DNA of 64,000 nt, taken from assembly GCF_050920415.1 (NCBI RefSeq), contig NZ_CP169309.1. The stretch is one strand, 5' to 3'. The position numbers and the translations under genes were made by a program. The notes under the pieces are model-generated. The model was not told where the DNA came from and ran no database searches. It was given only the letters and a program-made list of their open reading frames with translations. Of the stretch, positions 10,423 through 38,552 are shown piece after piece. This stretch comes from Escherichia coli. Its GTDB lineage: Bacteria > Pseudomonadota > Gammaproteobacteria > Enterobacterales > Enterobacteriaceae. The stretch's first letter is position 1, and each line of letters starts with the position of its first letter.

Positions 10423-10503
10423 TGCTGTGGAAAAGCGTCGGCACTGCTTTTGTTGCAGCAAACTTGCGTTTTTTGTGAGGGTCACACTCTATAGCGGCAG
10501 TTT

Positions 10504-11409: not shown

Positions 11410-11418
11410 CATTGTCGG

Positions 11419-12888: not shown

Positions 12889-12990
12889 AATTCACATCCT
12901 GCCAGTAGAGAGAGAATAATGTAAGAGTTCCCGGAGTGCTGAATGTATTCAGCACTCAATTGCGGTCTGTTTTTTTAATTCTTAAATTTA

Positions 12991-13386
12991 TTAGCGGGTC
13001 GCGTTATAACAGGTCACATCGACTTCGACTTTACAATCGACAACCAGATCAGCCACACAACAAATACGTGCAGGCGGATTCTCGCCAAAAAATTCTCTGA
13101 ATACTTTATTAAATGACTGGAAATAGCGGGCGTCGGTCAGGATCACTTTCACGTGAACCACATCCGCCAGGCTATAACCGGCTTCAGTCATGATGTCGAC
13201 ACAGTTTTGGATCGCCAGTCGTGACTGTTCAACGATTCCGCCTTCTACCACTTCACCGTTTTTCATGGGTGTTTGCCCGGAGACGTACAGCCAGCCGCCC
13301 GCCTCAACCGCCCTGGCAAAAGGCAAATGCTGCCCGCCAGTGCCTGTTCCACCTTCCGTACCGTAACGTTTAATGCTCATATTCAC
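12991..13386 (-). CDS. RidA/YjgF/TdcF-family enamine/imine deaminase
   Basis: 131 aa ORF with a conserved Rid-family C-terminal region; the stop is 3 bp from the start of the upstream deacylase gene. Confidence 0.8.
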   Translation of the reverse strand: MNMSIKRYGTEGGTGTGGQHLPFARAVEAGGWLYVSGQTPMKNGEVVEGGIVEQSRLAIQNCVDIMTEAGYSLADVVHVKVILTDARYFQSFNKVFREFFGENPPARICCVADLVVDCKVEVDVTCYNATR

Positions 13387-13389
13387 TCC

Positions 13390-14841
13390 TTAATGTGAGG
13401 TCTGCCGGCGCAGGAAGCGTCCCGCACGGCCTGTAATATGTTTATCGCGACCATAGCTCATAACGCCGTTCACCATCACCGCCTCAATGCCATCTGCCGG
13501 GCGTTTGGGATCAGAAAAGCTGGCAACATCACGAATGGTTTGTGGATCGAACAACACCAGGTCCGCAAAATAGCCAACTTTCACCAGTCCACGCTGGGGC
13601 AGGCGAAAACGGCTGGCAGAAAGCCCGGTCATTTTGTGGATAGCCGTGGTCAGAGGGAATAAACCTTCATCACGGCAATAGTGACCCAGCACGCGAGGGA
13701 AGGCGCCCCATAAACGTGGATGCGGCATGGGATCATTGGGCAGGCCGTCAGAGCCAATCATACTGACTGGATAACTCAATACTCTGCGGACGTCGCGCTC
13801 GTCCATGTTGTAATAGATAGCCCCGGCAGGCATTAGCAGCTTCGCGGCCTCCAGCATACTCATCTGCCAGTCGATGGCGATTTGCGCCAGTGTTTTCCCG
13901 GCCTGCTGCGGATGTGTTTGTGACCAGGTGATCACAATATCGAATTCGTCGGTGACTTGTTTGAGATCCAGCGTTGAAGAGCTGGCTGAGTAAGGGTAGA
14001 CATCGCAGCCAATTTCCTGGTGTTGACGCATTTGGTCAAAAAAAGCCAACGTTTCTTTTGTCCGCCCCCAGTTTTTCGCCCCGGCGCATTTATGGTGGGA
14101 AACCACGACAGGCACTTTGCCATGACGCCCAATACGAAACGCCTCATCCAGGGCATCGAGAATCGGTTCAAATTCAGAACGCAGATGGGTGGTATAAACG
14201 CCCTTCTCACCGGCTAATTCTTCCGCCAGCGCCATGACTTCTTCGGTAGTCGCCTGAAATGCTGTGGCATAGGCCAGCCCGGAACTTAACCCCAGCGCCC
14301 CCTGACTCAACGCCAGACGTAAGTCGGCGCGCATGGCGGCAATTTCATCCGCCGTCGCCGGGCGAAACAGGTCGTCCATATGGTTATTACGCAGCGCCGT
14401 ATGACCAATCAGCGTGCCAACGTTCAGTGACGGCCTGGCTGCTTCCACTGCCTGGGCATAGCTTTCAACGGTAGGATAAATAAAGTGCTCCGCTTCCCCC
14501 AACAGATTCATCGGGTCAGGAACTTCGCCTTTCATTTTCGCCGACGCCGCACTGATCCCGCAGTTACCGACAATCACCGTGGTGATCCCCTGGCTGATTT
14601 TTGGCAGATATTCCGGGATGCGAATAACGTTGATATCGTCATGGGTATGAACGTCGATAAACCCTGGTGCCAGCACCCGCCCTTCCCCGTCAATGACCTG
14701 CTGCGCCGTAACGTTAAGCGCAGGGGCAATATCGACAATCCGATCACCTGTTATTGCCACGTCACCGCGAAATTCAGGGCCGCCGCTACCGTCGATAACG
14801 GTCACATTTTTGATTAACCAGTCAACCTGCATGTTCGTCAC
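13390..14841 (-). CDS. N-acyl-D-amino-acid deacylase (D-aminoacylase) family amidohydrolase
   Basis: 483 aa ORF with a metal-dependent amidohydrolase N-terminus (DGxG...PGFIDVHTHDD) typical of D-aminoacylases. Confidence 0.8.
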   Translation of the reverse strand: MTNMQVDWLIKNVTVIDGSGGPEFRGDVAITGDRIVDIAPALNVTAQQVIDGEGRVLAPGFIDVHTHDDINVIRIPEYLPKISQGITTVIVGNCGISAASAKMKGEVPDPMNLLGEAEHFIYPTVESYAQAVEAARPSLNVGTLIGHTALRNNHMDDLFRPATADEIAAMRADLRLALSQGALGLSSGLAYATAFQATTEEVMALAEELAGEKGVYTTHLRSEFEPILDALDEAFRIGRHGKVPVVVSHHKCAGAKNWGRTKETLAFFDQMRQHQEIGCDVYPYSASSSTLDLKQVTDEFDIVITWSQTHPQQAGKTLAQIAIDWQMSMLEAAKLLMPAGAIYYNMDERDVRRVLSYPVSMIGSDGLPNDPMPHPRLWGAFPRVLGHYCRDEGLFPLTTAIHKMTGLSASRFRLPQRGLVKVGYFADLVLFDPQTIRDVASFSDPKRPADGIEAVMVNGVMSYGRDKHITGRAGRFLRRQTSH

Positions 14842-15032
14842 TCCATTTCTGCAATGGTGACAAGTTAACCATTTACAAGGATGAAAAACAGTGGAAAACT
14901 ACGCAAAACCCAGATGATTTTATGATACTTTTATTCATAAACTATAAGATAAATAAACTAAATATTTATATTTCATTTAGTTACAAATGATACTCACATC
15001 CGATACGGTGAAAAACTTAAAAGGTAAATGTT

Positions 15033-16253
15033 ATGAAATACCACTCAGAACCTCTGGTTCCCCATAAATCGGCCCTGATGCAAATGCCCGCAAATCTCCT
15101 TGCCGAAGATGTCTGTTTACCTGCCGCGATCATTAAAAAGCAGGCCCTGGAGAACAACATTACGTGGATGCAGCGTTATGCTGACGCGCGCGGCGTTTCG
15201 CTGGCACCGCACGGTAAAACCACCATGACGCCGTGGATTTTTCAGGCGCAGCAGGCGGCTGGTGCCTGGGCAATAGGTGTCGGTAGCGCATGGCAGGCTG
15301 GTGCGGCAATGGCGAGCGGTATTCAGCGAGTGCTGATGGTTAACCAGCTGGTCGGCAAGGCGAATATGCAGTTGATTGCCCGGTTGCAACAACATTACCC
15401 GACGGTCGATTTTATCTGCTGTATCGACAGCATTGAGAACGCCCGCGCTTTGTCTGCCTTTTTTGCCAGTCAGCAACAGACACTGAACGTGATGATTGAG
15501 CTGGGTGTTCCCGGCGGACGCTGTGGTTGCCGCTCAACGGATGCCGCACTGGCACTGGCTAAACAGGCGGCCCAATTACCAGGGCTACGTCTGCGCGGGC
15601 TTGAGTTATATGAAGGTGTTTTACACGGTGACGATCCACAACCGCAGGTAGAAGCTCTGCTGCGGGATGCCGCACAACTGGCCTGTGATATGGCAAGTCT
15701 GGTTGATGGCGAGTTTATTCTCACCGGAGCAGGCACGGTCTGGTATGACGTGGTGTGCAATATCTGGCTGGCGGCAGAAAAGCCTGATAACTGCCGCATT
15801 GTTATTCGCCCTGGCTGCTACATCACTCACGACACCGGGATCTACGACGCGGCACAACAACAGTTGCTTGCCCGCGATCCTGTGGCCTGCGATCTTGCAG
15901 GCGATCTCACATCTGCGCTGGAACTGGTCGCCATGGTGCAATCGGTGCCGGAAGCTGATCGTGCGGTGGTAAATTTTGGTAAGCGTGATTGCGCCTTCGA
16001 CGCCGGACTGCCGCAACCAGTCGCCCACTACCGCAACGGCAAATCACTGGCATTTGATCCACAGGCGATTCGCAGTACAGGTATTATGGATCAGCACTGC
16101 ATGTTGCAACTGTCAGCTAATAGCGACGTGCAAGTGGGGGATATTCTGGTGTTTGGCACATCGCATCCGTGCCTGACCTTCGACAAATGGAAAACGTTGT
16201 TATTGGCTGATGACGACTACAACGTACTGGCAGAGCTGGATACGCTGTTTTGA
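15033..16253 (+). CDS. PLP-dependent enzyme of the alanine-racemase fold (DSD1-like D-serine or D-threo-hydroxy-amino-acid dehydratase/aldolase type)
   Basis: 406 aa ORF with an N-terminal region containing the HGKT lysine motif characteristic of fold-type III PLP enzymes; divergent from the deacylase-RidA-transporter operon. Confidence 0.7.
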   Translation: MKYHSEPLVPHKSALMQMPANLLAEDVCLPAAIIKKQALENNITWMQRYADARGVSLAPHGKTTMTPWIFQAQQAAGAWAIGVGSAWQAGAAMASGIQRVLMVNQLVGKANMQLIARLQQHYPTVDFICCIDSIENARALSAFFASQQQTLNVMIELGVPGGRCGCRSTDAALALAKQAAQLPGLRLRGLELYEGVLHGDDPQPQVEALLRDAAQLACDMASLVDGEFILTGAGTVWYDVVCNIWLAAEKPDNCRIVIRPGCYITHDTGIYDAAQQQLLARDPVACDLAGDLTSALELVAMVQSVPEADRAVVNFGKRDCAFDAGLPQPVAHYRNGKSLAFDPQAIRSTGIMDQHCMLQLSANSDVQVGDILVFGTSHPCLTFDKWKTLLLADDDYNVLAELDTLF

Positions 16254-16261
16254 TAGCGCAG

Positions 16262-16283
16262 ATGGCGGGTTCCTTCCCGCCAT
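16262..16283. terminator. hairpin between convergent genes (ATGGCGGG-loop-CCCGCCAT)
   Basis: Inverted repeat read directly in the 58 bp gap. Confidence 0.45.
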
Positions 16284-16311
16284 TAATTGTATGTATATCC
16301 TTAAGTATCTA

Positions 16312-17322
16312 TCAGCTACTTATGGATCGAATATCATCATAGATTGACTGGCTGATCTCTACCCCCTGTTGCTCACTGCGCAATCGTGCCTGGTAGCGAC
16401 GTTCTCCCGGCAGGCGCGCGCCCTGAGCCTGCATCTGACTAAACAGCGTTTCCGCCCTTGCCAGATGCCTCCCTGCATCCTCACCAAGAAAACGCTGCGG
16501 ATCGAGTGCCAGGATCAACTCTCCACCATACGGCAAACCACCTGCACCGTTATCCCACGCAAGAGACTCAGCACTGGTCATATCGCCAATCAGTGGTCCC
16601 GCAATCAGCTCCACCATCGCTGCCAGTGCCGAACCTTTATGACCGCCGAAGGTTAACATTGCTCCGTCCAACACAGCTTGTGGATCGGTGGTGGCATTGC
16701 CATGGCTGTCGATCCCCCAACCTTCAGGAAGTGATTTCCCGGCTCGCTGATGTAACTGAATCTCCCCGCGTGCCGCCGCACTGGTCGCCATATCAAAAAT
16801 AAATGGCGGCAGCTTGTCGCGCGGCCAACCAAACGCGATTGGGTTAGTACCAAAAAGAGGTTTGCCCCCCCCTTTCGGCGCAACCCAGGCATGGCTTGGC
16901 GTGGTCGCCAGCGCCACCAGTCCGGCTTCAGTCAGCGGTTCAACATCCGCAAATAAGGCGGAGTAGTGAACACAATGATTAATTGCCAGTGCTGCAATCC
17001 CGCACTGACGCGTTTTCTCGATCAGTAACGGTAGTGCCTGCTGATAAGCCAACAGCGAATAGCCACCTTTGGCATCGGCCTTAACGATTGCCGGAGCCTG
17101 AGATTCCACTGTCGGCAGAGCATCGGCAGAGACTTTCCCTTTTCGCAGCGTGTCAACAATCCCCAGCAGTCGCCATAAACCGTGCGAGGCACAACCGTCG
17201 CGCTCCCCGGCGGTAACGTTTTTCGCGATCACCACTGCATGTTGCTCACTAAATCCGTTACTAATGAGCGCATGATAGGCTAGTGCGTAAGCCTCTGATA
17301 ACGAGAGGATTACTCTATCCAT
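16312..17322 (-). CDS. Ldh_2-family (malate/L-lactate dehydrogenase-like) oxidoreductase, delta1-pyrroline-2-carboxylate or delta1-piperideine-2-carboxylate reductase-like
   Basis: 336 aa ORF resembling the Ldh_2 family, which includes Pyr2C/Pip2C reductases and ureidoglycolate dehydrogenase. Confidence 0.7.
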   Translation of the reverse strand: MDRVILSLSEAYALAYHALISNGFSEQHAVVIAKNVTAGERDGCASHGLWRLLGIVDTLRKGKVSADALPTVESQAPAIVKADAKGGYSLLAYQQALPLLIEKTRQCGIAALAINHCVHYSALFADVEPLTEAGLVALATTPSHAWVAPKGGGKPLFGTNPIAFGWPRDKLPPFIFDMATSAAARGEIQLHQRAGKSLPEGWGIDSHGNATTDPQAVLDGAMLTFGGHKGSALAAMVELIAGPLIGDMTSAESLAWDNGAGGLPYGGELILALDPQRFLGEDAGRHLARAETLFSQMQAQGARLPGERRYQARLRSEQQGVEISQSIYDDIRSISS

Positions 17323-17333
17323 TTTCTACTCCT

Positions 17334-18935
17334 TTATTCTTCTTCATCCCCGTTAAAGTTCGCCCGAGGAAGACAGGTGTATGCGCCCCAGTAATAAATT
17401 CCCAACGACATCAGCGCGACGACGATAGTATCCCACGGGTGCCCTATAATGCCGCTACCGCCAAAGCTACCCAGCCAGGAAAACAGCATAATCAGGGCAT
17501 AGAAGGCAATAAGCCACAATGAAGATTTAATCTGCTGCGCCAGGCTGACATGCTGAACAGGCACTTTCGACTTGCAACTCACGTAAACCACAAACATTAC
17601 GATTTGTAGCCCCAGCAGCCAGGAAAGCGTCCCCCAACCAGACCAAAAAACAATCAGTGCGGAAATCATAAAAGAGAGTGGGCCAAGCACCGCAAAACCA
17701 CGAACGCGGAACGGGCGCGGCATATCAGGTGCATTACGGCGCAGTCCTGCAGCTGTAACCGGCGCGATGGCGTAGCTCAGTACCAGAGCCGCAGAAACCA
17801 CGCTAATCAATTGCTCCCACGACGGGAACGGTAGCGTCCAGAAGATAGATAAACCAAACGTCAGCCACAGTGCCGGACGTGGAATACCTGACTCCTTATC
17901 GATATGAGTAAAGGTTTTAAAGAATGTCCCCGCCTTCGCCCAGCCATAGATCACACGCGGTGTCGCATTCATGTAAATATTGCCAGTGCCGCTGGGAGAC
18001 ACAATAGCATCACATACCACCATAAATGCCAGCCAGCCCATCCCGAGAGTAATGGCGATATCGCGATATGGCAGCGAATAGTTCTTACTGATCTCCGCCC
18101 AACCACCACTTAGCGATTCAGTTGGAATACTGCCCAAAAAGGCGACCTGCAACAGAACGTAGATGATGGTCGAGAGAATTACCGAGAGGATCAGCGCAAA
18201 TGGGATGGTACGTTGCGGATTTTGCGCCTCGCTGGCTACGGAGATAATCGGTGTCAGTCCAAGGTAAGCGAAGATAATCCCACCCGCGCTAATTGCCGCT
18301 TCCACTCCTGACATACCAAATGGAGCCATACCCTGTATATGCAGATTCTCCGGTTTGAAGAAGGCAAATAACGTTATTACCACCAGCAACGGCACCAGAA
18401 ACTTCAGCACGCTAATAAAATTGTTCGAGCGAGCGAAAGTTTTAACACTGTAGTAGTTCAGGGCAAAAAAGAAGCACAACAGTAAGAACTGCACCACCCA
18501 GCCTAACAGCGTCGGGTCACTACTCCCCGTCTGCGTCAGCGCAGGAAACCAGGCGGCGGCATATTGCCGTGCGGCTACAATCTCAATGGAGATCAGGCTG
18601 GAGAAGGCAATCAGGGTAATAAAACCCAGCAGATAGCCCATCAATTCGCCGTGCGAAAATACCGGGTAACGAATAATACCGCCCGCGCGGGGAAGCGCCG
18701 CCCCCAGTTCGCAGTAAATAATCCCCAGTAGCAGCACCGCAAAACCGCCAATAACCCAGGAAGCAATCCCTGCTGGGCCAGCGATCGATGCGACATGGCT
18801 GGCAGCAAACAGCCAGCCAGAACCGAAAATCGCCCCCAGACCAATAAAGGTCAAGTCGGTGAGCGTTAACTGCTTTTTAAACTTCCCCGACTCAACAACG
18901 ACGGTTTGCGTGCTTTGGGTAGAAGGAATTGTCAT
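17334..18935 (-). CDS. APC-superfamily amino-acid permease
   Basis: Polytopic membrane protein. The start was moved to the internal ATG at 18935 to remove a 40 bp overlap with the upstream gene. Confidence 0.8.
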   Translation of the reverse strand: MTIPSTQSTQTVVVESGKFKKQLTLTDLTFIGLGAIFGSGWLFAASHVASIAGPAGIASWVIGGFAVLLLGIIYCELGAALPRAGGIIRYPVFSHGELMGYLLGFITLIAFSSLISIEIVAARQYAAAWFPALTQTGSSDPTLLGWVVQFLLLCFFFALNYYSVKTFARSNNFISVLKFLVPLLVVITLFAFFKPENLHIQGMAPFGMSGVEAAISAGGIIFAYLGLTPIISVASEAQNPQRTIPFALILSVILSTIIYVLLQVAFLGSIPTESLSGGWAEISKNYSLPYRDIAITLGMGWLAFMVVCDAIVSPSGTGNIYMNATPRVIYGWAKAGTFFKTFTHIDKESGIPRPALWLTFGLSIFWTLPFPSWEQLISVVSAALVLSYAIAPVTAAGLRRNAPDMPRPFRVRGFAVLGPLSFMISALIVFWSGWGTLSWLLGLQIVMFVVYVSCKSKVPVQHVSLAQQIKSSLWLIAFYALIMLFSWLGSFGGSGIIGHPWDTIVVALMSLGIYYWGAYTCLPRANFNGDEEE

Positions 18936-18946
18936 AGTGATGCCCT

Positions 18947-20557
18947 TCAATGAGTCAACAAGGAGGAAATGGCTTCCCGGGTCCACTGGCCGTTAACCAA
19001 GCGCAGCAGGTTTAATGGATTACTGTCCTGCAGCGCAGGCGGTAATAGTGCAGCGGGTGCATTTTGCAGGCATACCGGGCGCAGAAAACGAGTAATGGCC
19101 AGCGTGCCTACGGACGTGCCGCGCGCGTCGGTGGTTGCCGGGAACGGACCACCGTGTACCATGGCATCGCAAACCTCGACGCCGGTGGGATAGCCATTGA
19201 ACAATACGCGTCCGGCTTTATCAGCCAACAATGGCAATAAACGACCAGCCAGTTGCCGGTCATCCTCATCCGCCTGAAGTGTGGCAGTAAGTTGCCCTTG
19301 CAGAGCGTTAATTACCTGCAACAACTCCGCTTCATCAGCGGCTTCAACCACAATCGCGAGCGGCCCGAACACTTCCTCCTGCAACAGAGGATCTTTTTCA
19401 AGTATGTTTGCCGCCTGAGCCTGATAGAGACGAGTTTCTGCTCGTCCGGCTTGATGATTATCGTCCCCCGCCAAACACCGAATAGTCGGATGTTCTGCCA
19501 GTTTCTCCACGCTGTGGCGATAGTGCTCAAGCGTGGAGGCGTTTAGCATGAGTTGCGGTGTGGCGGCATTCACTTTCTCAACCAGTTGCTGTAAAAAGTC
19601 CGCGTTTTTCTCCCCTTTCAGCAACACAATCAGGCCTGGTTTAGTGCAGAACTGTCCACATCCCAACGTGAACGACGCGACTAAATCGCGGGCCAGCGTA
19701 TCGGCACGTACTGATAGCGCCTGCGGCAGAATGAAAAAGGGATTGAGAGCCGACATTTCGGCAAAAACCGGTATCGGCTGTGGACGCTGTTGGGCCAAAC
19801 GAAAGAGCGCCATGCCACCACGTAATGAGCCGGTAAAACCCACCGCCTGAATTGCGGGATGTTTCACCAGTTCAGCACCGATATCAGTACCGAAAATCAT
19901 ATTGAATACGCCTGCGGGCATGGCGCATTTAGTCACGGCACGAGCGATCGCTGATGCGATAATTTCTGCCGTTGCCATATGCCCAGGATGCGCTTTCACA
20001 ACTACCGGGCATCCTGCAGCCAGTGCCGCTGCTGTATCACCACCGGCGATAGAAAAAGCGAGTGGAAAGTTGCTGGCACCAAATACCGCCACCGGCCCGA
20101 GAGCCGTTTTATACTGGCGCAAATCCGGTCGAGGCAGAGGCTGACGCTCCGGCAACGCAGTATCAATTCTTACCTCAAACAGATCGCCCCGACGTAATAA
20201 CCCGGCAAACATGCGCATCTGCCCGCTGGTTCTTGCCCGCTCTCCCTGTAAACGCGCCAGGGGTAACGCTGTCTCCTGATGTGCCGTAGCGAACAGTTCG
20301 TCGCCTGCTGCATCAAGTTCATCGGCGATGGTTTCTAAAAAATCGGCACGTTGCCCGGCATTGGTCAGTGAATAGCACACAAAAGCCTGCTGCGCCGCAA
20401 TAGCCGCCTGCTCGGCCTCCTCCACGGAGGCCGGGTAAAAACGTTGCCCGGTAGGTTCGCCATCCTGCGCTCGCAGGCTGACCAGCGACGGTTCACCGCT
20501 GGCAACACGTTGCCCGGCGATGAACTGTTGCCCGGTGAAAGGGAAAGTTTCAGTCAT
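18947..20557 (-). CDS. NAD(P)-dependent aldehyde dehydrogenase, 2,5-dioxovalerate (alpha-ketoglutarate semialdehyde) dehydrogenase-like
   Basis: 536 aa ALDH-superfamily protein with catalytic Cys context (GQFCTKPG) and a length typical of KGSADH. Confidence 0.8.
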   Translation of the reverse strand: MTETFPFTGQQFIAGQRVASGEPSLVSLRAQDGEPTGQRFYPASVEEAEQAAIAAQQAFVCYSLTNAGQRADFLETIADELDAAGDELFATAHQETALPLARLQGERARTSGQMRMFAGLLRRGDLFEVRIDTALPERQPLPRPDLRQYKTALGPVAVFGASNFPLAFSIAGGDTAAALAAGCPVVVKAHPGHMATAEIIASAIARAVTKCAMPAGVFNMIFGTDIGAELVKHPAIQAVGFTGSLRGGMALFRLAQQRPQPIPVFAEMSALNPFFILPQALSVRADTLARDLVASFTLGCGQFCTKPGLIVLLKGEKNADFLQQLVEKVNAATPQLMLNASTLEHYRHSVEKLAEHPTIRCLAGDDNHQAGRAETRLYQAQAANILEKDPLLQEEVFGPLAIVVEAADEAELLQVINALQGQLTATLQADEDDRQLAGRLLPLLADKAGRVLFNGYPTGVEVCDAMVHGGPFPATTDARGTSVGTLAITRFLRPVCLQNAPAALLPPALQDSNPLNLLRLVNGQWTREAISSLLTH

Positions 20558-20572
20558 AATCTCTCCCCCACC

Positions 20573-21514
20573 TCAAAGGCCCACGTCCGGCAGCGCAGGG
20601 CGAGTCGCCAGCGATTTCTCAACGATCGCCACAACCTGGGCACGCGTTTCGCCTTCCAGCGCCAGACGCGGCGGGCGAGTAACCTCACTGCCACGCCCCA
20701 ACAGGGCTTCACACAGCTTGATACACTGCACCAGGTCAGGGCGCGCATCGAGATGTAGCAGTGGCATAAACCAGCGATAGAGCGCCATAGCCTCGGCAAA
20801 ACGCTGTTGTTTTGCCAAACGGAACAACGTCTCACCTTCGCGTGGGAAGGCGTTTGACATCCCGGAAATCCAGCCTTCAGCGCCCACCGCAATGCTCTCA
20901 ACCACGACATCGTCCAGCCCGGCAAACAGCACAAAGCGATCGCCTACCGCATTGCGAAGATCGATAAAGCGCCGGGTATCACCAGAGGAATCTTTAAAGC
21001 AGACGATATTTTCGCAATCAGCTAGTGTTTCCAGGATATCAGGGGTGACATCGTTTTTATAAATCGGAGGGTTGTTATAGACCATGATCGGCAGGTCGGT
21101 CGCCATTGCCACACTGCGGAAGTGCGCTGCAGTTTCATGAGGCTTAGATGAGTAAACCAAAGCAGGCATCACCATAACGCCATCAACACCGACCTTCTCG
21201 GCCTCTTTTGCCATCGTCCGGGCAAAGGCAGTGGTGAACTCAGCAACCCCGGCAATCACCGGAATTTTTCCGCCAGCAGCATCTTTCGCTACTTCGATGA
21301 TTTGCAGTTTTTCCTGAGTGGTAAGTGACGTGTTTTCTCCAACGCTGCCGCACACTACCAGGCCAGAAACCCCATCTTTAACCAAGTTTTTCATCACCGC
21401 ATGTGTGGCATCCAAATCAAGTGAGTAATCACTACGGAACTGAGTGCTAACCGCCGGAAAAACGCCACTCCAGTTAATCGCTTTATTGCTCATCTTTGGT
21501 TTCCTTATTGTCAA
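20573..21514 (-). CDS. DapA/DHDPS-family lyase, candidate delta1-pyrroline-4-hydroxy-2-carboxylate deaminase
   Basis: 313 aa ORF of the dihydrodipicolinate synthase/N-acetylneuraminate lyase family; the specific function is inferred from the neighbouring epimerase, oxidase and KGSADH genes. Confidence 0.75.
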   Translation of the reverse strand: MTIRKPKMSNKAINWSGVFPAVSTQFRSDYSLDLDATHAVMKNLVKDGVSGLVVCGSVGENTSLTTQEKLQIIEVAKDAAGGKIPVIAGVAEFTTAFARTMAKEAEKVGVDGVMVMPALVYSSKPHETAAHFRSVAMATDLPIMVYNNPPIYKNDVTPDILETLADCENIVCFKDSSGDTRRFIDLRNAVGDRFVLFAGLDDVVVESIAVGAEGWISGMSNAFPREGETLFRLAKQQRFAEAMALYRWFMPLLHLDARPDLVQCIKLCEALLGRGSEVTRPPRLALEGETRAQVVAIVEKSLATRPALPDVGL

Positions 21515-21644
21515 TCTGTTGCGTCAATGTGAATTAAAAGTGAATCTTCATTAACAGATTGACCTCTCCTTGCGCTGGCGGCTTGTCGATTTTCTTTCCC
21601 CAGGATGACGAAATTAGCACAATGCCCAGTTGTGATTTGTCGTG

Positions 21645-22472
21645 TTACCCCATCAACGTCATCCGAAAATCACGCGGAGTTGAGCCTGTCATCGCCTTAA
21701 ATTGACGGCTGAACGCACTATGGTCGGTATAACCGCACTGCAAAGCGATATCGGTAATCGGCGTAGTTCCGGCAAGTAACTCGGTGGCCTTTTCCAGTCG
21801 AACTTTGTGGATCATCTGGCGAGGCGTCAGGTGAAAAATCCGCTTACAGTAGCGTTCAATTTGCGCCACAGACATTCCGCTCATTTCAGTCAACTCTTCC
21901 ATAGAGATCGCACGGTAGTAGTGATTGCGAATGTGCTCATCGATGATCGCCAGGCGTTGCCAGGCTGGATGACGCGCATGTGCTTCCTGGAGATCATGTG
22001 AGATCCCCGCCATTCCGATCACACGCCCCTGCATATCGCGCAGTGCCAGTTTCTGCGTCAGACACCAGCCGCGTTCGCGACCGTTATAGAGATGCATCTC
22101 TAGTTGATCACGTAACGCAACCCCTTCGCGTAGCACACGCAGATCCTGTTCGGTATATCCTCGTCCCAATGCAGAAGGGAAAACATCTGCCGATGTCTTC
22201 CCCAGTAGCGATGTCACATTTTTAAACCCGCAGCGTCGCGCCAACGTCATATTGACTAACAGATAACGGGCCTGCATATCCTTAATAAAAAACACCACAT
22301 TAGGAATGGCGTTGAGAAGTGGCGCAATCAGCGCCAGTGCATTTAACAACGCCTGAATATTTTGTGGACGCTGCCGCGCCAGCCCCTCGCAAATCTGACT
22401 AAGTTCATCAACGGCCAGCGCAGTTTCTTCACAAGGGGAAAACTCAAAAGTCTGATGACATATGCTGGACAT
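21645..22472 (-). CDS. AraC-family transcriptional regulator
   Basis: 275 aa ORF with a C-terminal AraC-type double helix-turn-helix; divergent from the epimerase operon. Confidence 0.85.
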   Translation of the reverse strand: MSSICHQTFEFSPCEETALAVDELSQICEGLARQRPQNIQALLNALALIAPLLNAIPNVVFFIKDMQARYLLVNMTLARRCGFKNVTSLLGKTSADVFPSALGRGYTEQDLRVLREGVALRDQLEMHLYNGRERGWCLTQKLALRDMQGRVIGMAGISHDLQEAHARHPAWQRLAIIDEHIRNHYYRAISMEELTEMSGMSVAQIERYCKRIFHLTPRQMIHKVRLEKATELLAGTTPITDIALQCGYTDHSAFSRQFKAMTGSTPRDFRMTLMG

Positions 22473-22783
22473 AGTTGTTCCTCATAGCGATTGAGGATGA
22501 ATGTTTATTAACCTTTGATTAACATGACAAGTACTGAAAGTGCATTTTGCGATCCTTCCGTGTATTTCCACTTTCCGTTGCTCTCACTACTGACGAACGC
22601 TTGTTCCTGGTCTAACACATCACTAACAAAATGATTAATATTAAAAAAACATGACCACTCCTGGTGTCGCGAAATAATTCACTGTGCTGATTTCGTCATT
22701 TCCCTTGCAGAAACCCTTCAAGCGATAAAGTTGCAATTACGCCAGCATTTAGAAACATTTTGTTAACCACATGGAGCCAGAGC

Positions 22784-23731
22784 ATGCATGTTCCTCACCA
22801 AATCACTGAACTCAGGGCTATCGACTCCCATACCGGAGGCGAGCCGACCCGGTTGATTATTGATGGCTTTCCCGATCTCGGTAGCGGCAGCATGGCCGAA
22901 CGGCGCGAACGTTTTACCCGGGAATTTGACTGTTGGCGCAAAGCCATAATTCTTGAGCCACGCGGCAACGACGTGCTGGTCGGCGCGCTACTGTGTGAGC
23001 CGCTTTCCCCTCATGCCACGGCGGGTGTCATCTTTTTCAATAATGCCGGATACCTGAATATGTGTGGGCACGGCACTATCGGGCTTGTTGCCTCACTGGC
23101 CTGGTTGGGTCGTATTAAACCGGGCGTTCATCGCATTGAAACCCCTGTCGGAGATGTAAACGCCACATTGCATGATGATGGCAGTGTGTCAGTTGAAAAT
23201 GTTCCGGCCTGGCGCTGGCAAAAACAGGTAAGTGTGGAAACAGCGGTGGGTACAGTTACAGGAGATATCGCCTGGGGTGGTAACTGGTTTTTTCTTATTA
23301 ATGATCATCCATTTGATATTGTGCCGGAACAAATCCCGCAGTTAACTGAATACGCCTGGGCGGTACGGGAAGGGCTCGATAATGCGGGGATCGTCGGTGA
23401 AAACGGTGGCATTATCGATCATATCGAACTTTTTGCCGATGACGATCAGGCGGATAGCCGTAGCTTCGTCCTTTGCCCAGGTAAAGCGTGGGATCGTTCT
23501 CCCTGTGGCACAGGCACCAGCGCCAAGCTGGCCTGTCTGGCAGAAGACGGAAAACTCGCCCCCGGCGATAGCTGGCGCCAGGCCAGTATTATTGGTAGCC
23601 AGTTTACGGCTCACTATACCCGCCATGGCGAGAAGATTATCCCCACCATTCGTGGAGAAGCCTGGGTATGCGGCGACAATCGCCTGCTCCTTAATCCGGA
23701 CGATCCCTTCTGCTGGGGGATTAGCCTGTGA
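22784..23731 (+). CDS. proline racemase family enzyme, 4-hydroxyproline 2-epimerase-like
   Basis: Two catalytic Cys motifs (MCGHG and SPCGTGTSA) typical of the proline racemase / 4-Hyp epimerase family; GGAG Shine-Dalgarno before the ATG at 22784. Confidence 0.85.
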
Positions 23732-24837
23732 ACAGCACGGAGGTCATTGTCATCGGCGCAGGCATCATCGGGGCCTCCTGCGCATGGCAACTGGCAAAAC
23801 GTGGTGTGAGAGTCACGCTAATTGACAACGGCCGAGCCGGAGCGACAGCTGCAGGAATGGGGCATCTGGTCTGTATGGATGATGATCCCGCAGAACTGAC
23901 GCTCTCTGCCTGGTCGCTGGAACTGTGGCGCACGTTGACGCCTCAGTTACCGGAAAGCTGTGCCTGGTGCGGCTGTGGCACATTGTGGCTGGCGGAAACA
24001 CCAGAAGAACTGGAAATTGCCCGAGAGAAGCAGCGACGTCTGGCATCGCATGAGGTCAACAGCGAAATGCAAAGCGCTGCACAATTGGCTGAGCGGGAAG
24101 TTATGCTACGCCCGGGGTTATCCGGCGGGTTATGGGTGCCGGGCGATGGCATCGTCTACGCCCCAAACGTTGCCCGTTGGTTTATTGCCAATGCAGGCGA
24201 TAAGCTGACACATCTGGTTGATCCGGCCATTCGTCTGGAAGAACCTACAGTGACATTACAGAGCGGTCGCCAATTACGCGCCGATGCGATCGTCGTCGCC
24301 TGTGGTCTGGGGGCCAATACGTTACTGGGGGAGCCATGGCTGCGCGCGAAGAAAGGCCAACTTGCGATTACCGATCGCTATGGTCCACTAGTCAATCACC
24401 AACTGGTTGAACTTGGCTACGGCGCCAGTGCTCACGGCAGCGGCACGTCAGTGGCCTTTAATGTGCAGCCTCGTCCCACCGGACAACTGCTGATTGGCTC
24501 TTCACGTCAGTTCGATAACGAGGATCGCGAACTGGACCTTCCACTCCTGGCCGCGATGCTGTCCAGAGCGCAACACTTTCTGCCGTCTCTGGCAACGCTC
24601 AATATTATTCGTTGCTGGAGCGGTTTTCGCGCCGCCTCGCAGGATGGTAATCCCCTTCTCGGCCCGCATCCTTCCCGTGCTGGCGTCTGGCTGGCTCTTG
24701 GTCATGAAGGGCTTGGAGTGACTACTGCCCCCGCCAGCGCGTCGCTGTTAGTCGCACAGTTGCTGGGTGAACGCAGCCTCGTATCTCCTGCCCCCTGGCT
24801 ACCCGCAAGACTTATCTCCCTGGAGGCCAGCGCATGA
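23728..24837 (+). CDS. FAD-dependent oxidoreductase (DadA/HcnC/OoxB-like), candidate D-hydroxyproline dehydrogenase beta subunit
   Basis: N-terminal FAD dinucleotide-binding motif [14 protein letters not shown]; the GTG start overlaps the upstream stop, suggesting translational coupling. Confidence 0.8.
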
Positions 24838-25097
24838 GTGGCACCATTAGAATTTTTATTGCCGGACAGCCCTGGTTTGTCCCGACGGGTATTAGCGTAG
24901 CGGCGGCACTGGCCTTAACTGATAACCCCATTACGCGCCTTTCGGTGAGCGGGCAACCACGTACGCCCTTCTGCGGCATGGGCGTTTGCCAGGAGTGTCG
25001 GGTGAGCGTTAATGGTCGTCGGGTACCCGGTTGTCAGACCCTTTGCCAGCCAGACATGCAGATTGAAAGGAGCGGATATGCAGACCTTACAGTGTGA
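24834..25097 (+). CDS. small [2Fe-2S]-binding subunit (HcnA / sarcosine-oxidase-alpha N-terminus-like)
   Basis: 87 aa ORF with a Cys cluster (CGMGVCQEC...GC); ATGA overlap with the upstream gene. Confidence 0.65.
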   Translation: MSGTIRIFIAGQPWFVPTGISVAAALALTDNPITRLSVSGQPRTPFCGMGVCQECRVSVNGRRVPGCQTLCQPDMQIERSGYADLTV

Positions 25098-26343
25098 CAT
25101 TTTAATTCTCGGTGCAGGCCCGGCGGGGCTATCAGCGGCTCTGGCCGCAGCAAAGTGCGATAAGCAGGTCATCATCCTTGATGATAATCCGCTTCCTGGC
25201 GGTCAAATCTGGCGCGATGGTCCACAAAGTCAGCTTCCTCCACTGGCCCGCCATTACCGTGATGCCGTTGCCAACGAATCGCGGATTCGTGTGCTCAACG
25301 GAGCGAGGTTAATCGCCCGCCGCAGCGAAAATTGTGTACTGTTCGAAACTGCAGAAGACTACGGCACAGTAAGCTGGAATAAGCTGATTCTCTGCTGCGG
25401 CGCACGTGAACTTGCATTACCGTTTCCAGGCTGGACGCTGCCCGGTGTCAGTGGCGCGGGTGGGCTACAGGCACAAATGAAACAGGGGCTGCACATGGCA
25501 AATCAAAAAGTGGTTATTGCCGGAAGTGGGCCACTATTACTGGCCGTTGCTGACACCGTTCGCCGTGCCGGAGGCGAAGTGGTGGCGATTGTGGAACAAG
25601 CCCCACGCGCAGCGCTATTGCGCTTTGGCTTCGGACTATGGCGTTGGCCGGGTAAGCTGCGCCAACTGGCGACACTATTTCCTCGTCGTTATCTCAGTGC
25701 AAGCCAGGTTATCGCTGCACACGGCGACGCCACATTGCGTGCTGTCACCCTCCGACACAATGGTAGGGAAATCACACTGCCATGCGACAAATTAGCTATT
25801 GGCTATGGTCTAGTGCCTAATCTTGAACCTGGGTTGTTCTTCAGTTGTGCCATCAGCAATGATGCCGTGCAGGTGGATGAACTGCAGCGAACCTCGGTTA
25901 AAAACATCTATGCAGCCGGTGAATGTACTGGATTTGGTGGCAGTGAACTGGCGCTGATAGAAGGTGAAATAGCCGGACTTTGTGCGGCCGATCGCGCCCA
26001 TGAAACAAAGTTTCTGCAACAAAAACGCACCAGGTGGCAGCGCTTCGCCCTCGCGCTTCATAAAACCTTTGCCCTGCCCGAAAGTCTCAAGCGCGTTGCG
26101 ACACCAGAAACGCTGCTTTGCCGCTGCGAAGACATTCGCTGTGGCGATGTAGAGCAAGCACAAAGCTGGCTGCAGGCCAAATTAACGACCCGCTGCGGCA
26201 TGGGAGCCTGTCAGGGGAGAACCTGCGCCGCTACCGCACGATGGTTGTACGGCTGGCCATTACTGGAACCGCGAGCCCCCCTTTCCCCCTCTCGCAGCGA
26301 AACGTTAATTGCCCTGGCGCAACAACCACCTTCGCCACATTAA
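25078..26343 (+). CDS. FAD/NAD(P)-binding oxidoreductase with C-terminal BFD-like [2Fe-2S] domain (HcnB/OoxA-like), candidate D-hydroxyproline dehydrogenase alpha subunit
   Basis: N-terminal DILILGAGPAGLSAA motif and a C-terminal Cys cluster (CRCEDIRCGD...CGMGACQGRTC); strong AAGGAG Shine-Dalgarno before the ATG at 25078. Confidence 0.8.
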   Translation: MQTLQCDILILGAGPAGLSAALAAAKCDKQVIILDDNPLPGGQIWRDGPQSQLPPLARHYRDAVANESRIRVLNGARLIARRSENCVLFETAEDYGTVSWNKLILCCGARELALPFPGWTLPGVSGAGGLQAQMKQGLHMANQKVVIAGSGPLLLAVADTVRRAGGEVVAIVEQAPRAALLRFGFGLWRWPGKLRQLATLFPRRYLSASQVIAAHGDATLRAVTLRHNGREITLPCDKLAIGYGLVPNLEPGLFFSCAISNDAVQVDELQRTSVKNIYAAGECTGFGGSELALIEGEIAGLCAADRAHETKFLQQKRTRWQRFALALHKTFALPESLKRVATPETLLCRCEDIRCGDVEQAQSWLQAKLTTRCGMGACQGRTCAATARWLYGWPLLEPRAPLSPSRSETLIALAQQPPSPH

Positions 26344-26370
26344 ATCCCTGATAATAATTTGGCGTTAAGG

Positions 26371-26435
26371 GCTTATCTGGTCTGGTAAATCTTACAAATT
26401 CAATATATTGCAGAATCTATCCAGGCCAGATAAGC
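26371..26435. repeat. 15 bp imperfect inverted repeat (GCTTATCTGGTCTGG ... CCAGGCCAGATAAGC) at the right boundary of the tsr-btsT island
   Basis: Read directly; one mismatch between arms, about 35 nt spacer. Confidence 0.4.
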
Positions 26436-26535
26436 GTAGCGCAGCTGGCAATTATTGAGCCGTAAACGAGGAATCTACCCAGAAAAAATTTCGTGATCTC
26501 AATCACATATTAGCTCGATGAATAATTCTTGCCCA

Positions 26536-26584
26536 ACCGCTCACCGCCATTCCTGACCGCTTACGTCCCAAATATAACCACTCA
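26536..26584 (+). promoter_or_regulatory. candidate BtsR (YehT) response-regulator binding site: three direct repeats ACC(G/A)CT(C/T)A
   Basis: ACCGCTCA, ACCGCTTA and ACCACTCA with 12 and 13 bp spacers, 136-184 bp upstream of btsT; matches the recalled LytTR-type motif reported for the yjiY promoter. Confidence 0.45.
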
Positions 26585-26719
26585 GTTATTTACCTTACTT
26601 TACGCGCGCGTAACTCTGGCAACATCACTGCAGGATAGCGGTCAATTTACCTCCTCAAACGCAACGCAAACCTAGAACGGCTTCGGCCAACTATTAATCA
26701 ATACATGCCAGGTTTTACT

Positions 26720-28870
26720 ATGGATACTAAAAAGATATTCAAGCACATACCCTGGGTGATTCTTGGAATCATCGGTGCATTCTGCCTCGCGGTAGTTGCA
26801 TTACGTCGGGGGGAGCACGTCAGCGCCCTGTGGATCGTGGTCGCCTCTGTGTCAGTGTATCTGGTGGCTTATCGCTACTACAGTCTGTACATCGCCCAGA
26901 AAGTGATGAAACTCGACCCCACGCGCGCGACGCCTGCGGTTATTAACAACGACGGTCTGAACTATGTTCCGACCAACCGTTACGTGTTGTTTGGTCACCA
27001 CTTCGCTGCTATCGCCGGTGCGGGTCCGCTGGTTGGTCCGGTTCTCGCCGCGCAGATGGGTTACCTGCCTGGCACACTGTGGCTGCTGGCGGGGGTAGTG
27101 CTGGCCGGTGCGGTACAGGACTTTATGGTGCTGTTTATCTCTTCTCGCCGTAACGGCGCATCTCTCGGTGAGATGATCAAAGAAGAGATGGGGCCAGTAC
27201 CGGGGACTATCGCGCTGTTTGGCTGTTTCTTAATCATGATCATCATCCTCGCCGTTCTGGCGCTGATTGTGGTTAAAGCCCTGGCCGAAAGTCCGTGGGG
27301 TGTCTTCACCGTTTGCTCAACCGTACCAATTGCGCTGTTTATGGGTATCTACATGCGCTTTATCCGTCCTGGGCGTGTAGGTGAAGTCTCTGTTATTGGT
27401 ATCGTGCTGCTGGTTGCCTCTATCTACTTCGGTGGCGTAATTGCTCACGATCCGTACTGGGGTCCGGCACTGACCTTTAAAGACACCACCATTACCTTCG
27501 CACTGATTGGCTATGCGTTTGTTTCCGCACTGCTGCCGGTGTGGCTGATCCTCGCACCGCGCGACTATCTGGCAACCTTCCTGAAAATCGGCGTTATCGT
27601 CGGCCTGGCGCTGGGTATCGTGGTGCTGAACCCGGAACTGAAAATGCCTGCGATGACCCAGTACATTGACGGTACTGGCCCGCTGTGGAAAGGCGCTCTG
27701 TTCCCGTTCCTGTTCATCACCATCGCCTGTGGTGCGGTATCTGGCTTCCACGCGCTGATCTCTTCCGGTACGACGCCGAAACTGCTGGCTAACGAAACCG
27801 ACGCGCGTTTCATTGGCTACGGCGCAATGCTGATGGAGTCCTTCGTGGCGATTATGGCGCTGGTTGCTGCGTCCATCATCGAACCGGGTCTTTACTTCGC
27901 GATGAATACCCCGCCTGCGGGCCTTGGCATCACCATGCCTAACCTGCATGAAATGGGTGGCGAGAACGCGCCGATCATCATGGCACAACTGAAAGACGTT
28001 ACCGCACACGCGGCAGCGACTGTCAGCTCCTGGGGCTTCGTGATTTCGCCAGAGCAGATCCTGCAAACCGCGAAAGACATTGGTGAGCCTTCTGTCCTGA
28101 ACCGTGCAGGTGGTGCGCCGACGCTGGCGGTAGGTATCGCTCACGTGTTCCACAAAGTGCTGCCGATGGCTGACATGGGCTTCTGGTATCACTTCGGCAT
28201 TCTGTTCGAAGCCCTGTTCATCCTGACCGCGCTGGATGCGGGTACCCGTTCTGGCCGCTTTATGCTGCAAGACCTGCTGGGTAACTTCATCCCGTTCCTG
28301 AAAAAAACCGACTCTCTGGTTGCCGGTATCATCGGTACTGCGGGCTGTGTGGGTCTGTGGGGCTACCTGCTGTATCAGGGCGTGGTCGATCCGCTGGGCG
28401 GCGTTAAGAGCCTGTGGCCGCTGTTCGGTATCTCCAACCAGATGCTGGCAGCCGTAGCGCTGGTACTGGGCACCGTTGTGCTGATTAAGATGAAGCGCAC
28501 CCAATACATCTGGGTGACTGTTGTTCCGGCTGTATGGCTGCTTATCTGCACCACCTGGGCGCTGGGCCTGAAACTGTTCAGCACCAACCCGCAGATGGAA
28601 GGCTTCTTCTACATGGCAAGCCAGTACAAAGAGAAGATTGCTAACGGTACTGACCTGACGGCACAGCAGATTGCCAACATGAACCACATCGTTGTGAACA
28701 ACTACACCAACGCAGGCCTGAGTATTCTGTTCCTGATTGTGGTGTACAGCATCATCTTCTACGGTTTCAAAACCTGGCTGAAGGTGCGTAACAGCGACAA
28801 ACGTACTGACAAAGAAACACCGTACGTTCCAATCCCGGAAGGCGGCGTGAAGATTTCTTCGCACCACTAA
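26720..28870 (+). CDS. btsT: pyruvate/H+ symporter BtsT (CstA family)
   Basis: The translation from the ATG at 26720 ([19 protein letters not shown]...) is recognised as YjiY/BtsT; large polytopic CstA-type protein. Confidence 0.93.
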
Positions 28871-28876
28871 CCGGTT

Positions 28877-28951
<75 letters not shown>

Positions 28952-29000
28952 AAATCCCCGGCCCGGACCTTCCGGGCTTTACGCATATCTGGAAGGCAAA

Positions 29001-38475: not shown

Positions 38476-38552
38476 AGCGCGGTGCGGATGTGCGCCAACA
38501 CACCCGCACCGCTAATCACAATCCCTATTTCTAAGGAATAGTAATCATGACT
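38476..38552 (-). ncRNA. symR: SymR antisense sRNA (type I antitoxin of SymE), approximate placement
   Basis: Placed by recalled K-12 biology (about 77 nt, antisense to the symE 5' UTR and start codon). A 9 bp stem, GCGGTGCGG at 38477-38485 pairing with CCGCACCGC at 38504-38512, is visible in this interval. The ends are not determined from sequence. Confidence 0.3.

What the first reader, a model, noticed from the sequence alone, without database searches (positions are those of the whole stretch)
26371..26435. 15 bp inverted repeat at the island/btsT boundary
GCTTATCTGGTCTGG and CCAGGCCAGATAAGC flank about 35 bp immediately after the last island gene and before the btsT promoter. It resembles REP-type palindromes but could mark the recombination junction of the island or act as the terminator of the dehydrogenase operon.
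Basis: seen in the sequence. Interest (0 to 1): 0.3.

Follow-up and report, generated by a model that had tools for sequence, protein, structure and literature searches.

The report
Worn REP/BIME-1 repeat after an operon
The inverted repeat is a real but ordinary feature: a worn copy of BIME-1, a short repeated element that E. coli carries dozens of times per genome, sitting after the last gene of an accessory hydroxyproline operon, and it does not mark where that island joined the chromosome.

Summary
The 15-nt inverted repeat exists exactly as described: 26371-26385 and 26421-26435, 14/15 complementary plus one G·T, with a 35-nt spacer. It is not a free-standing palindrome. The two arms are the facing halves of two inverted REP units, and the spacer is the conserved "L" linker of an E. 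coli BIME-1 (RIB/RIP) element. A profile built from 75 independent family copies hits 26358-26452 at E=3e-21. The element's sequence recurs at a median of at least 22 places in 5,425 of 5,426 E. coli genomes. Rfam's ES036/CssrF model, which turns out to be this linker, scores 32.9 bits on the spacer, just under its threshold of 37.6.

This copy is degenerate. The left REP has lost its 5' half, and both conserved GTAG/CTAC feet are replaced by CCAG/CTGG. The arms still pair better than in canonical copies, and the left arm has been reshaped to match the right (P about 5e-5 by chance).

The copy is absent from K-12's tsr-btsT spacer and is present in only 34 genomes, all of which carry the hydroxyproline module. 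It lies 57 nt inside island-specific DNA, so it is not the junction. It is also not an intrinsic terminator. Its likely roles are those of the family: an RNA 3'-end hairpin or transcription attenuator, plus an IHF site. Interest is low.

The parts
25078..26343 (+). Last gene of the hydroxyproline-catabolism operon (NAD(P)/FAD-dependent oxidoreductase, 421 aa). Its stop codon is at 26341-26343, and the element follows directly.
   Evidence: Annotation of the near-identical genome NZ_CP169399.1; ORF list.
26358..26385 (+). Left unit: remnant of a y-type inverted REP. Only its 3' half is well preserved, and its 5' half has decayed so it no longer folds on its own.
   Evidence: The family profile alignment starts at 26358, model position 11. 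The unit's own fold has z = +1.0. Its best match to any family copy is 21/28.
26371..26385 (+). Left arm of the reported inverted repeat (GCTTATCTGGTCTGG). It ends in CTGG where the family has the CTAC foot.
   Evidence: CTAC is present in 67 of 75 family copies.
26386..26420 (+). 35-nt L linker of BIME-1. It contains the family's conserved core AAATTCAATATATTGCAG (26396-26413) and the IHF-type site ATTCAATATATTG (26398-26410).
   Evidence: The core is 18/18 identical to the family consensus. The linker matches other copies at up to 32/35. The IHF-type site has one mismatch to WATCAANNNNTTR and is identical to the site in the family consensus. Rfam ES036/CssrF hits 26386-26428 at 32.9 bits.
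26421..26450 (+). Right unit: z1-type REP. It comprises the foot CCAG (26421-24, family GTAG), the 5' stem strand GCCAGAT (26425-31) and the 3' stem strand AGCTGGC (26443-49). Position 26444 is G in this strain and T in most carriers, where the 7-bp stem is perfect.
   Evidence: It matches the yqjG-yhaH copy's right unit at 31/32.
26421..26435 (+). Right arm of the reported inverted repeat (CCAGGCCAGATAAGC).
26451..26492 (+). 42 nt of island-specific spacer between the element and the shared backbone. The sister configurations carry an intrinsic-terminator hairpin at this position instead.
   Evidence: Alignment A3; sequences.
26492..26507 (+). CRP-like palindrome (C/T)GTGATCTCAATCACA, the first backbone sequence shared with K-12, hpa-type and D-amino-acid-type strains. 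The right junction of island-specific DNA is at 26492/26493.
   Evidence: Alignments A2 and A3. The identification as a CRP site rests on the consensus from memory and was not tested.

Best explanation
The repeat is the core of a degenerate BIME-1 (RIB/RIP-type) element spanning about 26358-26450. It consists of a y-type REP remnant, the 35-nt L linker and an inverted z1-type REP, lodged directly after the stop codon of the last gene of an accessory hydroxyproline-catabolism operon and upstream of the btsT control region. The 15-nt inverted repeat is simply the facing halves of the two REP units, which are 13/15 complementary in every canonical BIME-1.

Shown here: homology to the family, its dispersed multicopy nature, the position at a gene 3' end, absence from K-12, and the decay of the left unit and of both GTAG/CTAC feet.

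Inferred, how it works: (1) When the operon is transcribed, the element forms a long stable RNA hairpin that blocks 3'-to-5' exonucleases and, as reported for BIMEs, attenuates read-through into btsT in a Rho-dependent way. It occupies the position where sister configurations have an intrinsic terminator. I put this at about 0.5. (2) At the DNA level, the intact L core offers the IHF site characteristic of BIME-1. I put this at about 0.5. (3) Because GTAG is required for binding and cleavage by the REP-associated transposase, this copy is probably no longer mobilisable. (4) The arms were made more complementary to each other, most simply by quasipalindrome template-switch replication errors and otherwise by selection for the hairpin.
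For: Identity. The linker and REP motifs occur far above chance in the window (4 matches against 0.20 expected, 6 against 0.09). BLAST of 26344-26452 finds matches covering at least 80% of the query in 5,425 of 5,426 genomes, with a median of 22 places per genome at about 75-82% identity. The exact 18-mer linker core is REP-flanked in 75 copies, all from Escherichia or Pseudocitrobacter apart from one contig binned as a Bacteroides MAG, and appears as 22 unrelated singletons elsewhere. The nhmmer profile of those 75 copies hits 26358-26452 at E=3e-21, covering model positions 11-105 of 106. Rfam ES036/CssrF is the L linker: it scores 41.5-52.9 bits on canonical copies and 32.9 bits here.

Definitions. 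A BIME-1 is y plus z1 REPs in inverse orientation, occurring singly, with a long conserved L linker that frequently carries an IHF site and GTAG at the foot (PMC3333891). The inter-REP sequence binds IHF, and REPs facilitate Rho-dependent termination (PMC2817692).

Built-in inverted repeat. Canonical arms pair at 13/15 in 39 of 75 copies.

Position. All three linker-bearing copies in the window lie at gene 3' ends. There is no intrinsic terminator on the + strand in 26100-26800, whereas hpa-type and D-amino-acid-type strains have one at the same spot.

Concerted arms. Four of the five left-arm substitutions create pairs with the right arm, exact P=4.5e-5. Precedents are compensatory changes in REPIN hairpins (PMC3116915) and quasipalindrome template switching in E. 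coli (PMC7202029).
Against: The copy is only 75% identical to the family consensus, against a median of 91.5%. Both GTAG/CTAC feet are changed. The left REP no longer folds on its own. Rfam's curated threshold is missed. The IHF consensus match has one mismatch, and matches of that quality occur about once per 1.8 kb. No transcript, IHF-binding or termination data exist for this copy, so every functional statement is carried over from the family. It may equally be a functionless relic.
Confidence: 0.9

Rival explanations
1. It marks the island's recombination junction or attachment site: the repeat would be the site at which the hydroxyproline module, or the whole tsr-btsT island, was joined to the backbone.
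For: It lies in island-specific DNA near the right end of the module, and REPs are reported targets of insertion sequences (PMC3333891 introduction).
Against: Shared backbone starts at 26493, 57 nt beyond the right arm and 42 nt beyond the element. The profile finds no copy at the tsr/D-amino-acid border (10365-10545) or the D-amino-acid/hydroxyproline border (16254-16311). The same sequence family occurs at 22 or more places per genome, mostly unrelated to islands. No integrase or transposase is annotated in the island.
Confidence: 0.03
2. It is a Rho-independent (intrinsic) terminator of the dehydrogenase operon.
For: It is a strong GC-containing hairpin directly after the last gene. The sister configurations have a genuine terminator hairpin at the equivalent position.
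Against: The loop is 35 nt, and neither the long hairpin nor the right REP's own hairpin is followed by a T-run (the next bases are AATTATTGAG). The terminator scan finds nothing on the + strand in 26100-26800.
Confidence: 0.04
3. It is a functionless relic: a decayed repeat copy with no present role, whose arm complementarity is a mutational by-product (template switching) and not the result of selection.
For: It is among the five most diverged of 78 copies. Both transposase-recognition feet are lost (PMC3333891). The left REP is half gone. The window's strain has even acquired a mismatch in the right REP stem at 26444. Template switching alone can perfect quasipalindromes (PMC7202029).
Against: The linker core is intact at 18/18 and the long hairpin is better than in canonical copies. 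It is the only strong structure between a co-directional operon and the btsT promoter. None of this proves function.
Confidence: 0.35
4. It encodes a small RNA of the ES036/CssrF type, transcribed from the linker.
For: There is a full-length Rfam match to RF02751 at 26386-26428, 32.9 bits, E=1.8e-4.
Against: The score is below the gathering threshold of 37.6. The model is simply the BIME-1 L linker plus the GTAG foot, and canonical copies score 41.5-52.9 bits. No promoter-like site was found in 26100-26800. Any RNA here is most simply the operon's 3' UTR.
Confidence: 0.05

Closest known systems
BIME-1 / RIB (RIP) elements of E. coli: y REP, L linker with IHF site, z1 REP (Gilson et al. 1991 and Boccard & Prentki 1993, as summarised in PMC3333891 and PMC2817692)
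   Same: The architecture and order of parts are the same: two inverted REP units with a 35-nt linker. The linker core is 18/18 identical. The right unit is z1-like. It occurs as a single copy at the locus, in an extragenic position at the 3' end of a transcription unit, and belongs to a dispersed multicopy family.
   Different: The left REP lacks its 5' half. Both conserved feet are changed (CTAC to CTGG, GTAG to CCAG). It is 75% identical to the consensus against a median of 91.5%. The conserved outer flanks seen around most copies are absent. The arms pair at 14/15 instead of 13/15.
The BIME-1 copy in the yqjG-yhaH intergenic region (core-genome copy, found in 5,408 E. coli genomes)
   Same: It shares the rare right-unit variant GGCCAGATAAGCGTAGCGCATCTGGC (31/32 against a family median of 27) and the CTTATCTG variant in the left unit. 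In Escherichia sp. E1V33 it even has the CCAG foot.
   Different: It sits at a different locus with different flanks. Its left unit is complete and keeps the CTAC foot. Over the whole length it is no closer to the finding than other copies are (75/95 against a median of 73). The relationship, whether gene conversion or common descent, is unresolved.
REPINs: REP doublets forming hairpins, mobilised by RAYT/TnpA-REP transposases (PMC3116915, PMC3333891)
   Same: It has two inverted REPs that form one long hairpin, and correlated changes on the two sides of the hairpin as reported for REPINs.
   Different: The GTAG tetranucleotide, required for TnpA-REP binding and cleavage (PMC3333891), is missing on both sides, so this copy is probably not a substrate.
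Rfam RF02751 ES036 (CssrF) sRNA
   Same: The model consensus AAAuUUGUGCAAAUUCAAUAAAUUGCAGGAaAUACGUAGGCCU is the L linker plus the GTAG foot. The finding gives a full-length match.
   Different: It scores 32.9 bits, below the 37.6 gathering score. Its changed foot (CCAGGCCA against the model's GUAGGCCU) falls within the modelled stretch.

Membership tests
BIME-1 / RIB element | Significant sequence similarity to the family along the whole unit | tested here: met
   The nhmmer profile of 75 independent copies hits 26358-26452 at E=3e-21, model positions 11-105 of 106. BLAST matches at 75-82% identity occur in 5,425 of 5,426 genomes.
BIME-1 / RIB element | A z1-type REP with its own imperfect palindrome | tested here: met
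   26421-26450. The stem is GCCAGAT/ATCTGGC, perfect over 7 bp in most carriers and with one A·G mismatch in this strain. It matches other copies at 27-31 of 32.
BIME-1 / RIB element | A y-type REP in inverse orientation with its own palindrome | tested here: inconclusive
   The 3' half (GGCGTTAAGGGCTTATCTGG) aligns to the y consensus, but the 5' half is lost and the unit does not fold on its own, z=+1.0. The orientation and position are right, but the unit is incomplete.
BIME-1 / RIB element | A long, conserved L linker between the two REPs | tested here: met
   The spacer is 35 nt, its core is 18/18 identical to the family, and it matches individual copies at up to 32/35.
BIME-1 / RIB element | IHF binds the linker | not testable with these tools
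   The sequence ATTCAATATATTG (26398-26410) is identical to the consensus linker's site and has one mismatch to WATCAANNNNTTR. Binding itself needs a gel shift or ChIP.
BIME-1 / RIB element | Conserved GTAG (CTAC on the inverted unit) at the foot of each REP | tested here: not met
   The feet are CCAG and CTGG. The family has GTAG in 69 of 75 copies and CTAC in 67 of 75, so about 8-11% of accepted copies also deviate. I treat this as a mark of decay, not as exclusion from the family by descent.
BIME-1 / RIB element | Extragenic, at the 3' end of a transcription unit, single copy at the locus | tested here: met
   It starts 15-27 nt after the stop codon of the last operon gene, with one unit only.
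REPIN (RAYT-mobilisable REP doublet) | GTAG-bearing REP recognised by TnpA-REP, together with the stem mismatch | tested here: not met
   GTAG is absent on both units. PMC3333891 shows that GTAG mutants are neither bound nor cleaved. I file this copy as a probable immobile relic.
Rfam RF02751 ES036/CssrF | Score at or above the curated gathering threshold (37.6 bits) | tested here: not met
   32.9 bits, E=1.8e-4. No hit at the gathering threshold anywhere in the window.
Intrinsic (Rho-independent) terminator | GC-rich stem, short loop, T-run directly after the stem | tested here: not met
   The loop is 35 nt, there is no T-run, and the scan finds none on the + strand.
Island attachment site / junction repeat | Located at the boundary with the backbone and matched by a partner at the other boundary | tested here: not met
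   The boundary is at 26492/26493, and no copy lies at the other module borders.

The most novel reading that the evidence does not exclude
This copy is a natural record of a REP doublet that lost both transposase-recognition feet, and so became immobile, while its two arms were driven to near-perfect complementarity and its IHF-linker core stayed intact. In other words, a selfish repeat domesticated as the hairpin insulator or attenuator that replaces the intrinsic terminator found between the cargo and the btsT promoter in sister configurations of the same hotspot.
Probability: 0.2. Interest if true: 0.3.

Novelty: new member of a known kind. Interest (0 to 1): 0.12.

Why it matters
It matters little for biology at large. 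REP/BIME elements have been known since the 1980s, and another copy at the 3' end of an operon is expected. The finding has three practical uses. First, it should not be annotated as an island junction, an att site or an intrinsic terminator. Second, it explains why short-read assemblies of these strains break or mis-join right after the hydroxyproline operon. Third, the reshaping of the left arm to match a variant right arm is a clean natural example of concerted change within a quasipalindrome, of minor interest to people who study REPIN evolution or template-switch mutagenesis.

Tried and rejected
1. I looked for REP/RIP features in K-12 MG1655's record to use as references. The current record lists none, so I built the reference family from a genome-collection scan instead.

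2. The strict IHF consensus WATCAANNNNTTR has no exact match in the linker. With one mismatch it matches, but sites of that quality are common, so the IHF inference rests on identity to the family linker.

3. The primary papers (Boccard & Prentki 1993, Gilson 1991, Raghavan 2011) are not held. A search for ES036/CssrF found nothing relevant, and a review on mRNA stability yielded only a reference.

4. My first claim was that the CCAG foot and the compensated T:A-to-A:T stem flip arose in place and were unique. I withdrew it when an unbiased profile search showed the same right unit at the yqjG-yhaH locus. I then recomputed the chance calculation under that ancestry.

5. An apparent second allele with a different downstream flank (contig L104) proved to be a probable assembly join into the yqjG-yhaH copy.

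6. I searched for a donor of the operon. The nearest non-E. coli homologues are at most 72% identical, with unrelated 3' flanks, so the time of insertion is undetermined.

7. The linker core being intact (0 of 18 changes) is not significantly better preserved than the right REP (4-5 of 30 changes), so I make no claim of special constraint.

8. One simulation timed out and was replaced by exact enumeration.

Full report
Observation. The inverted repeat is real and sits at the stated coordinates. The arms are 26371-26385 (GCTTATCTGGTCTGG) and 26421-26435 (CCAGGCCAGATAAGC), 14 of 15 complementary with one G·T, and 35 nt apart. It folds far better than shuffled sequence. As RNA the energy is -26.6 kcal/mol, z = -4.9, with 0 of 200 shuffles as good. 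As DNA it is -13.7 kcal/mol, z = -4.8. It begins 27 nt after the stop codon (26341-26343) of the last gene of a four-gene operon (4-hydroxyproline epimerase, two FAD-dependent oxidoreductases and a 2Fe-2S protein). It lies 285 nt upstream of btsT, which starts at 26720.

What it is. The right arm continues into GATAAGCGTAGCGCAGCTGGCA, and the spacer contains AAATTCAATATATTGCAG. Both motifs recur together at two other places in the window, 42993-43094 (+) and 60987-61090 (-). There they form complete modules of a REP, a linker of about 35 nt and an inverted REP. Published definitions (PMC3333891; PMC2817692) describe this as BIME-1. It is a y REP and a z1 REP in inverse orientation, occurring singly, separated by a long well-conserved L linker that frequently carries an IHF site, with a conserved GTAG (CTAC on the inverted unit) at each foot.

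Four independent tests place the finding in that family:
- BLAST of 26344-26452 finds matches covering at least 80% of the query in 5,425 of 5,426 complete E. coli genomes. The median is 22 places per genome (an undercount) at about 75-82% identity. Only 34 genomes hold the copy at 99% identity or more.
- A scan of one genome per species for the exact 18-mer linker core returned 93 stretches. Of the copies extracted, 75 are flanked by REPs, and all come from Escherichia or Pseudocitrobacter apart from one contig binned as a Bacteroides MAG. Another 22 are unrelated singletons in other taxa.
- An nhmmer profile of those 75 copies, built without any window sequence, hits 26358-26452 at E=3e-21 over model positions 11-105 of 106.
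- Rfam's ES036/CssrF model (RF02751) proved to be the L linker plus the GTAG foot. Canonical copies score 41.5-52.9 bits in five of the six loci scanned. The finding scores 32.9 bits, below the 37.6 threshold.

The inverted repeat is built into the family. In the consensus, the 3' half of the left REP (CCTTATCCGGCCTAC) and the 5' half of the right REP (GTAGGCCTGATAAGC) already pair at 13 of 15 positions. Thirty-nine of the 75 copies score 13.

How this copy differs. It is 75% identical to the family consensus, against a median of 91.5%. The 5' half of the left REP is gone, and that unit no longer folds by itself, z = +1.0. Both feet are changed, CTAC to CTGG and GTAG to CCAG. The family has CTAC/GTAG together in 64 of 75 copies, and no other copy has both feet changed in a complementary way.

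I first took the right unit's oddities to be local inventions. An unbiased profile search of about 780 kb of fetched loci showed otherwise. The BIME-1 copy between yqjG and yhaH, present in 5,408 E. coli genomes, carries the same rare right unit GGCCAGATAAGCGTAGCGCATCTGGC. Its foot reads GTAG in E. albertii, GCAG in E. coli and CCAG in Escherichia sp. E1V33. The finding's right unit matches that copy at 31/32 against a family median of 27. Its linker is closest to canonical copies (32/35), and its left unit is far from every copy (at most 21/28). The ancestry is thus mosaic, and I could not resolve whether gene conversion or common descent accounts for it.

What is specific to this locus is that the left arm has changed to match the variant right arm. 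Whichever plausible ancestor is assumed, four of the five left-arm substitutions create base pairs and one weakens a pair to G·T. The exact probability of reaching 14/15 or better by random substitution is 4.5e-5, and an earlier simulation gave 1.5e-5. Two known processes produce this pattern. One is quasipalindrome template-switch mutagenesis, which makes imperfect inverted repeats more perfect in E. coli (PMC7202029). The other is selection for the hairpin, as argued from compensatory changes in REPINs (PMC3116915). Sequence alone cannot separate them.

Backbone or island. The tsr-btsT gap is a cargo hotspot:
- In K-12 it is empty.
- Some strains hold the hpa cluster.
- Some hold a D-amino-acid module only.
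- This window holds the D-amino-acid module plus the hydroxyproline module.

K-12's spacer has neither the arms nor the linker motif. Only 34 of 5,426 genomes carry this copy, and all have the same arrangement. Most of them read T at 26444, which gives the right REP a perfect 7-bp stem. The window's strain has a derived G there.

Sequence shared with all other configurations begins at 26493, at a CRP-like palindrome. That point is 57 nt beyond the right arm and 42 nt beyond the element. No related copy lies at the other module borders. The element is therefore on the island side, but it is not the junction.

I could not date its arrival. No empty site exists among the complete genomes. Outside E. 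coli, the nearest homologues of the last operon gene are at most 72% identical. In Klebsiella the next gene starts 4 nt after the stop codon, and in C. rodentium the 121-nt gap downstream shows no REP-like sequence. Because the linker core is the Escherichia/Pseudocitrobacter form, acquisition within Escherichia is the simpler reading. This is an inference.

How it probably works. It is not an intrinsic terminator. The loop is 35 nt, there is no T-run, and the scan finds none on the + strand between the operon and btsT. The hpa-type and D-amino-acid-type strains carry a classic terminator hairpin (GCCCCTTCG...CGAAGGGGCATTTTT) at the same position. In carriers, the element is the only strong structure between a co-directional operon and the btsT control region.

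By analogy with the family (summaries in PMC3333891 and PMC2817692), the most likely roles are two. The first is a stable hairpin at the 3' end of the operon mRNA that slows exonucleolytic decay and promotes Rho-dependent attenuation. The second is an IHF site in the linker: ATTCAATATATTG at 26398-26410, identical to the family's site and one mismatch from WATCAANNNNTTR. All three linker-bearing copies in the window sit at gene 3' ends, as described for RIBs. Because GTAG is required for binding and cleavage by the REP-associated transposase (PMC3333891), this copy is probably immobile. None of these functions was or could be tested here, and a functionless relic remains a serious alternative, which I put at about 0.35.

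Verdict. The one mildly notable feature is the concerted reshaping of its arms.

Noticed in passing
window 57957-59288: There is a 1,332-bp insertion relative to the otherwise identical genome NZ_CP169399.1, splitting the inverse autotransporter gene iatD into ORFs 54342-57959 and 59251-60918. Its two overlapping ORFs (136 and 301 aa) look like IS2 InsC/InsD from memory. No family search was run.
   Followed up: partly
window 28875-28954: A REP pair without the L linker lies in the btsT-yjiX gap (profile E=2e-14). The gap is 130 nt here but only 49 nt in K-12 and in strain JNE23-011, so this is another strain-variable REP insertion.
   Followed up: partly
window 42993-43094 (+) and 60987-61090 (-): Two canonical BIME-1 copies lie between converging 3' ends, yjiR and an Rpn-family gene for the first and iatD and kptA for the second. 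A single REP also lies near 4870-4924.
   Followed up: partly
window 10365-26492: The tsr-btsT gap is a cargo hotspot with at least four states: empty (K-12), hpa cluster, D-amino-acid module, and D-amino-acid plus hydroxyproline modules (34 of 5,426 genomes). The hpa and D-amino-acid-only forms share the same terminator hairpin immediately before the CRP-like site.
   Followed up: partly
window 26492 and 26511-26520: Hydroxyproline carriers have C instead of T at the first base of the CRP-like palindrome upstream of btsT. The window's strain also differs from other carriers in a 10-nt patch just after it (TTAGCTCGAT against CCACCCGACG). Possible effects on btsT regulation were not examined.
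   Followed up: no
window 38476-38552 (-): The SymR antitoxin RNA (Rfam RF01809, 93 bits) lies next to symE, as expected.
   Followed up: no
L104 4254-4402; L105; L106: The three short-read contigs shown that carry the last hydroxyproline gene end 108-136 nt past its stop codon, inside the repeat. L104 runs on into the flank of the yqjG-yhaH BIME-1, which is probably a chimeric join through the shared right REP of about 30 nt.
   Followed up: yes
L062 6057-6074: A contig binned as a Bacteroides MAG carries a perfect Escherichia-type BIME-1, which is probably binning contamination.
   Followed up: no
L091 230-1020; L090 31-936; L085 2675-3420: Escherichia sp. MOD1-EC7003 has tandem arrays of L-linker units with a period of about 107-115 nt. 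BIME-1 is described as single-copy, so these would count as atypical BIMEs.
   Followed up: no
L109 / L110 / L094 6543-6645 / L012 5801-5904 (yqjG-yhaH intergenic): At this core-genome BIME-1 the GTAG foot varies between lineages: GTAG in E. albertii, GCAG in E. coli and CCAG in E1V33. The compensated GCCAGAT/ATCTGGC stem is conserved in all of them.
   Followed up: partly
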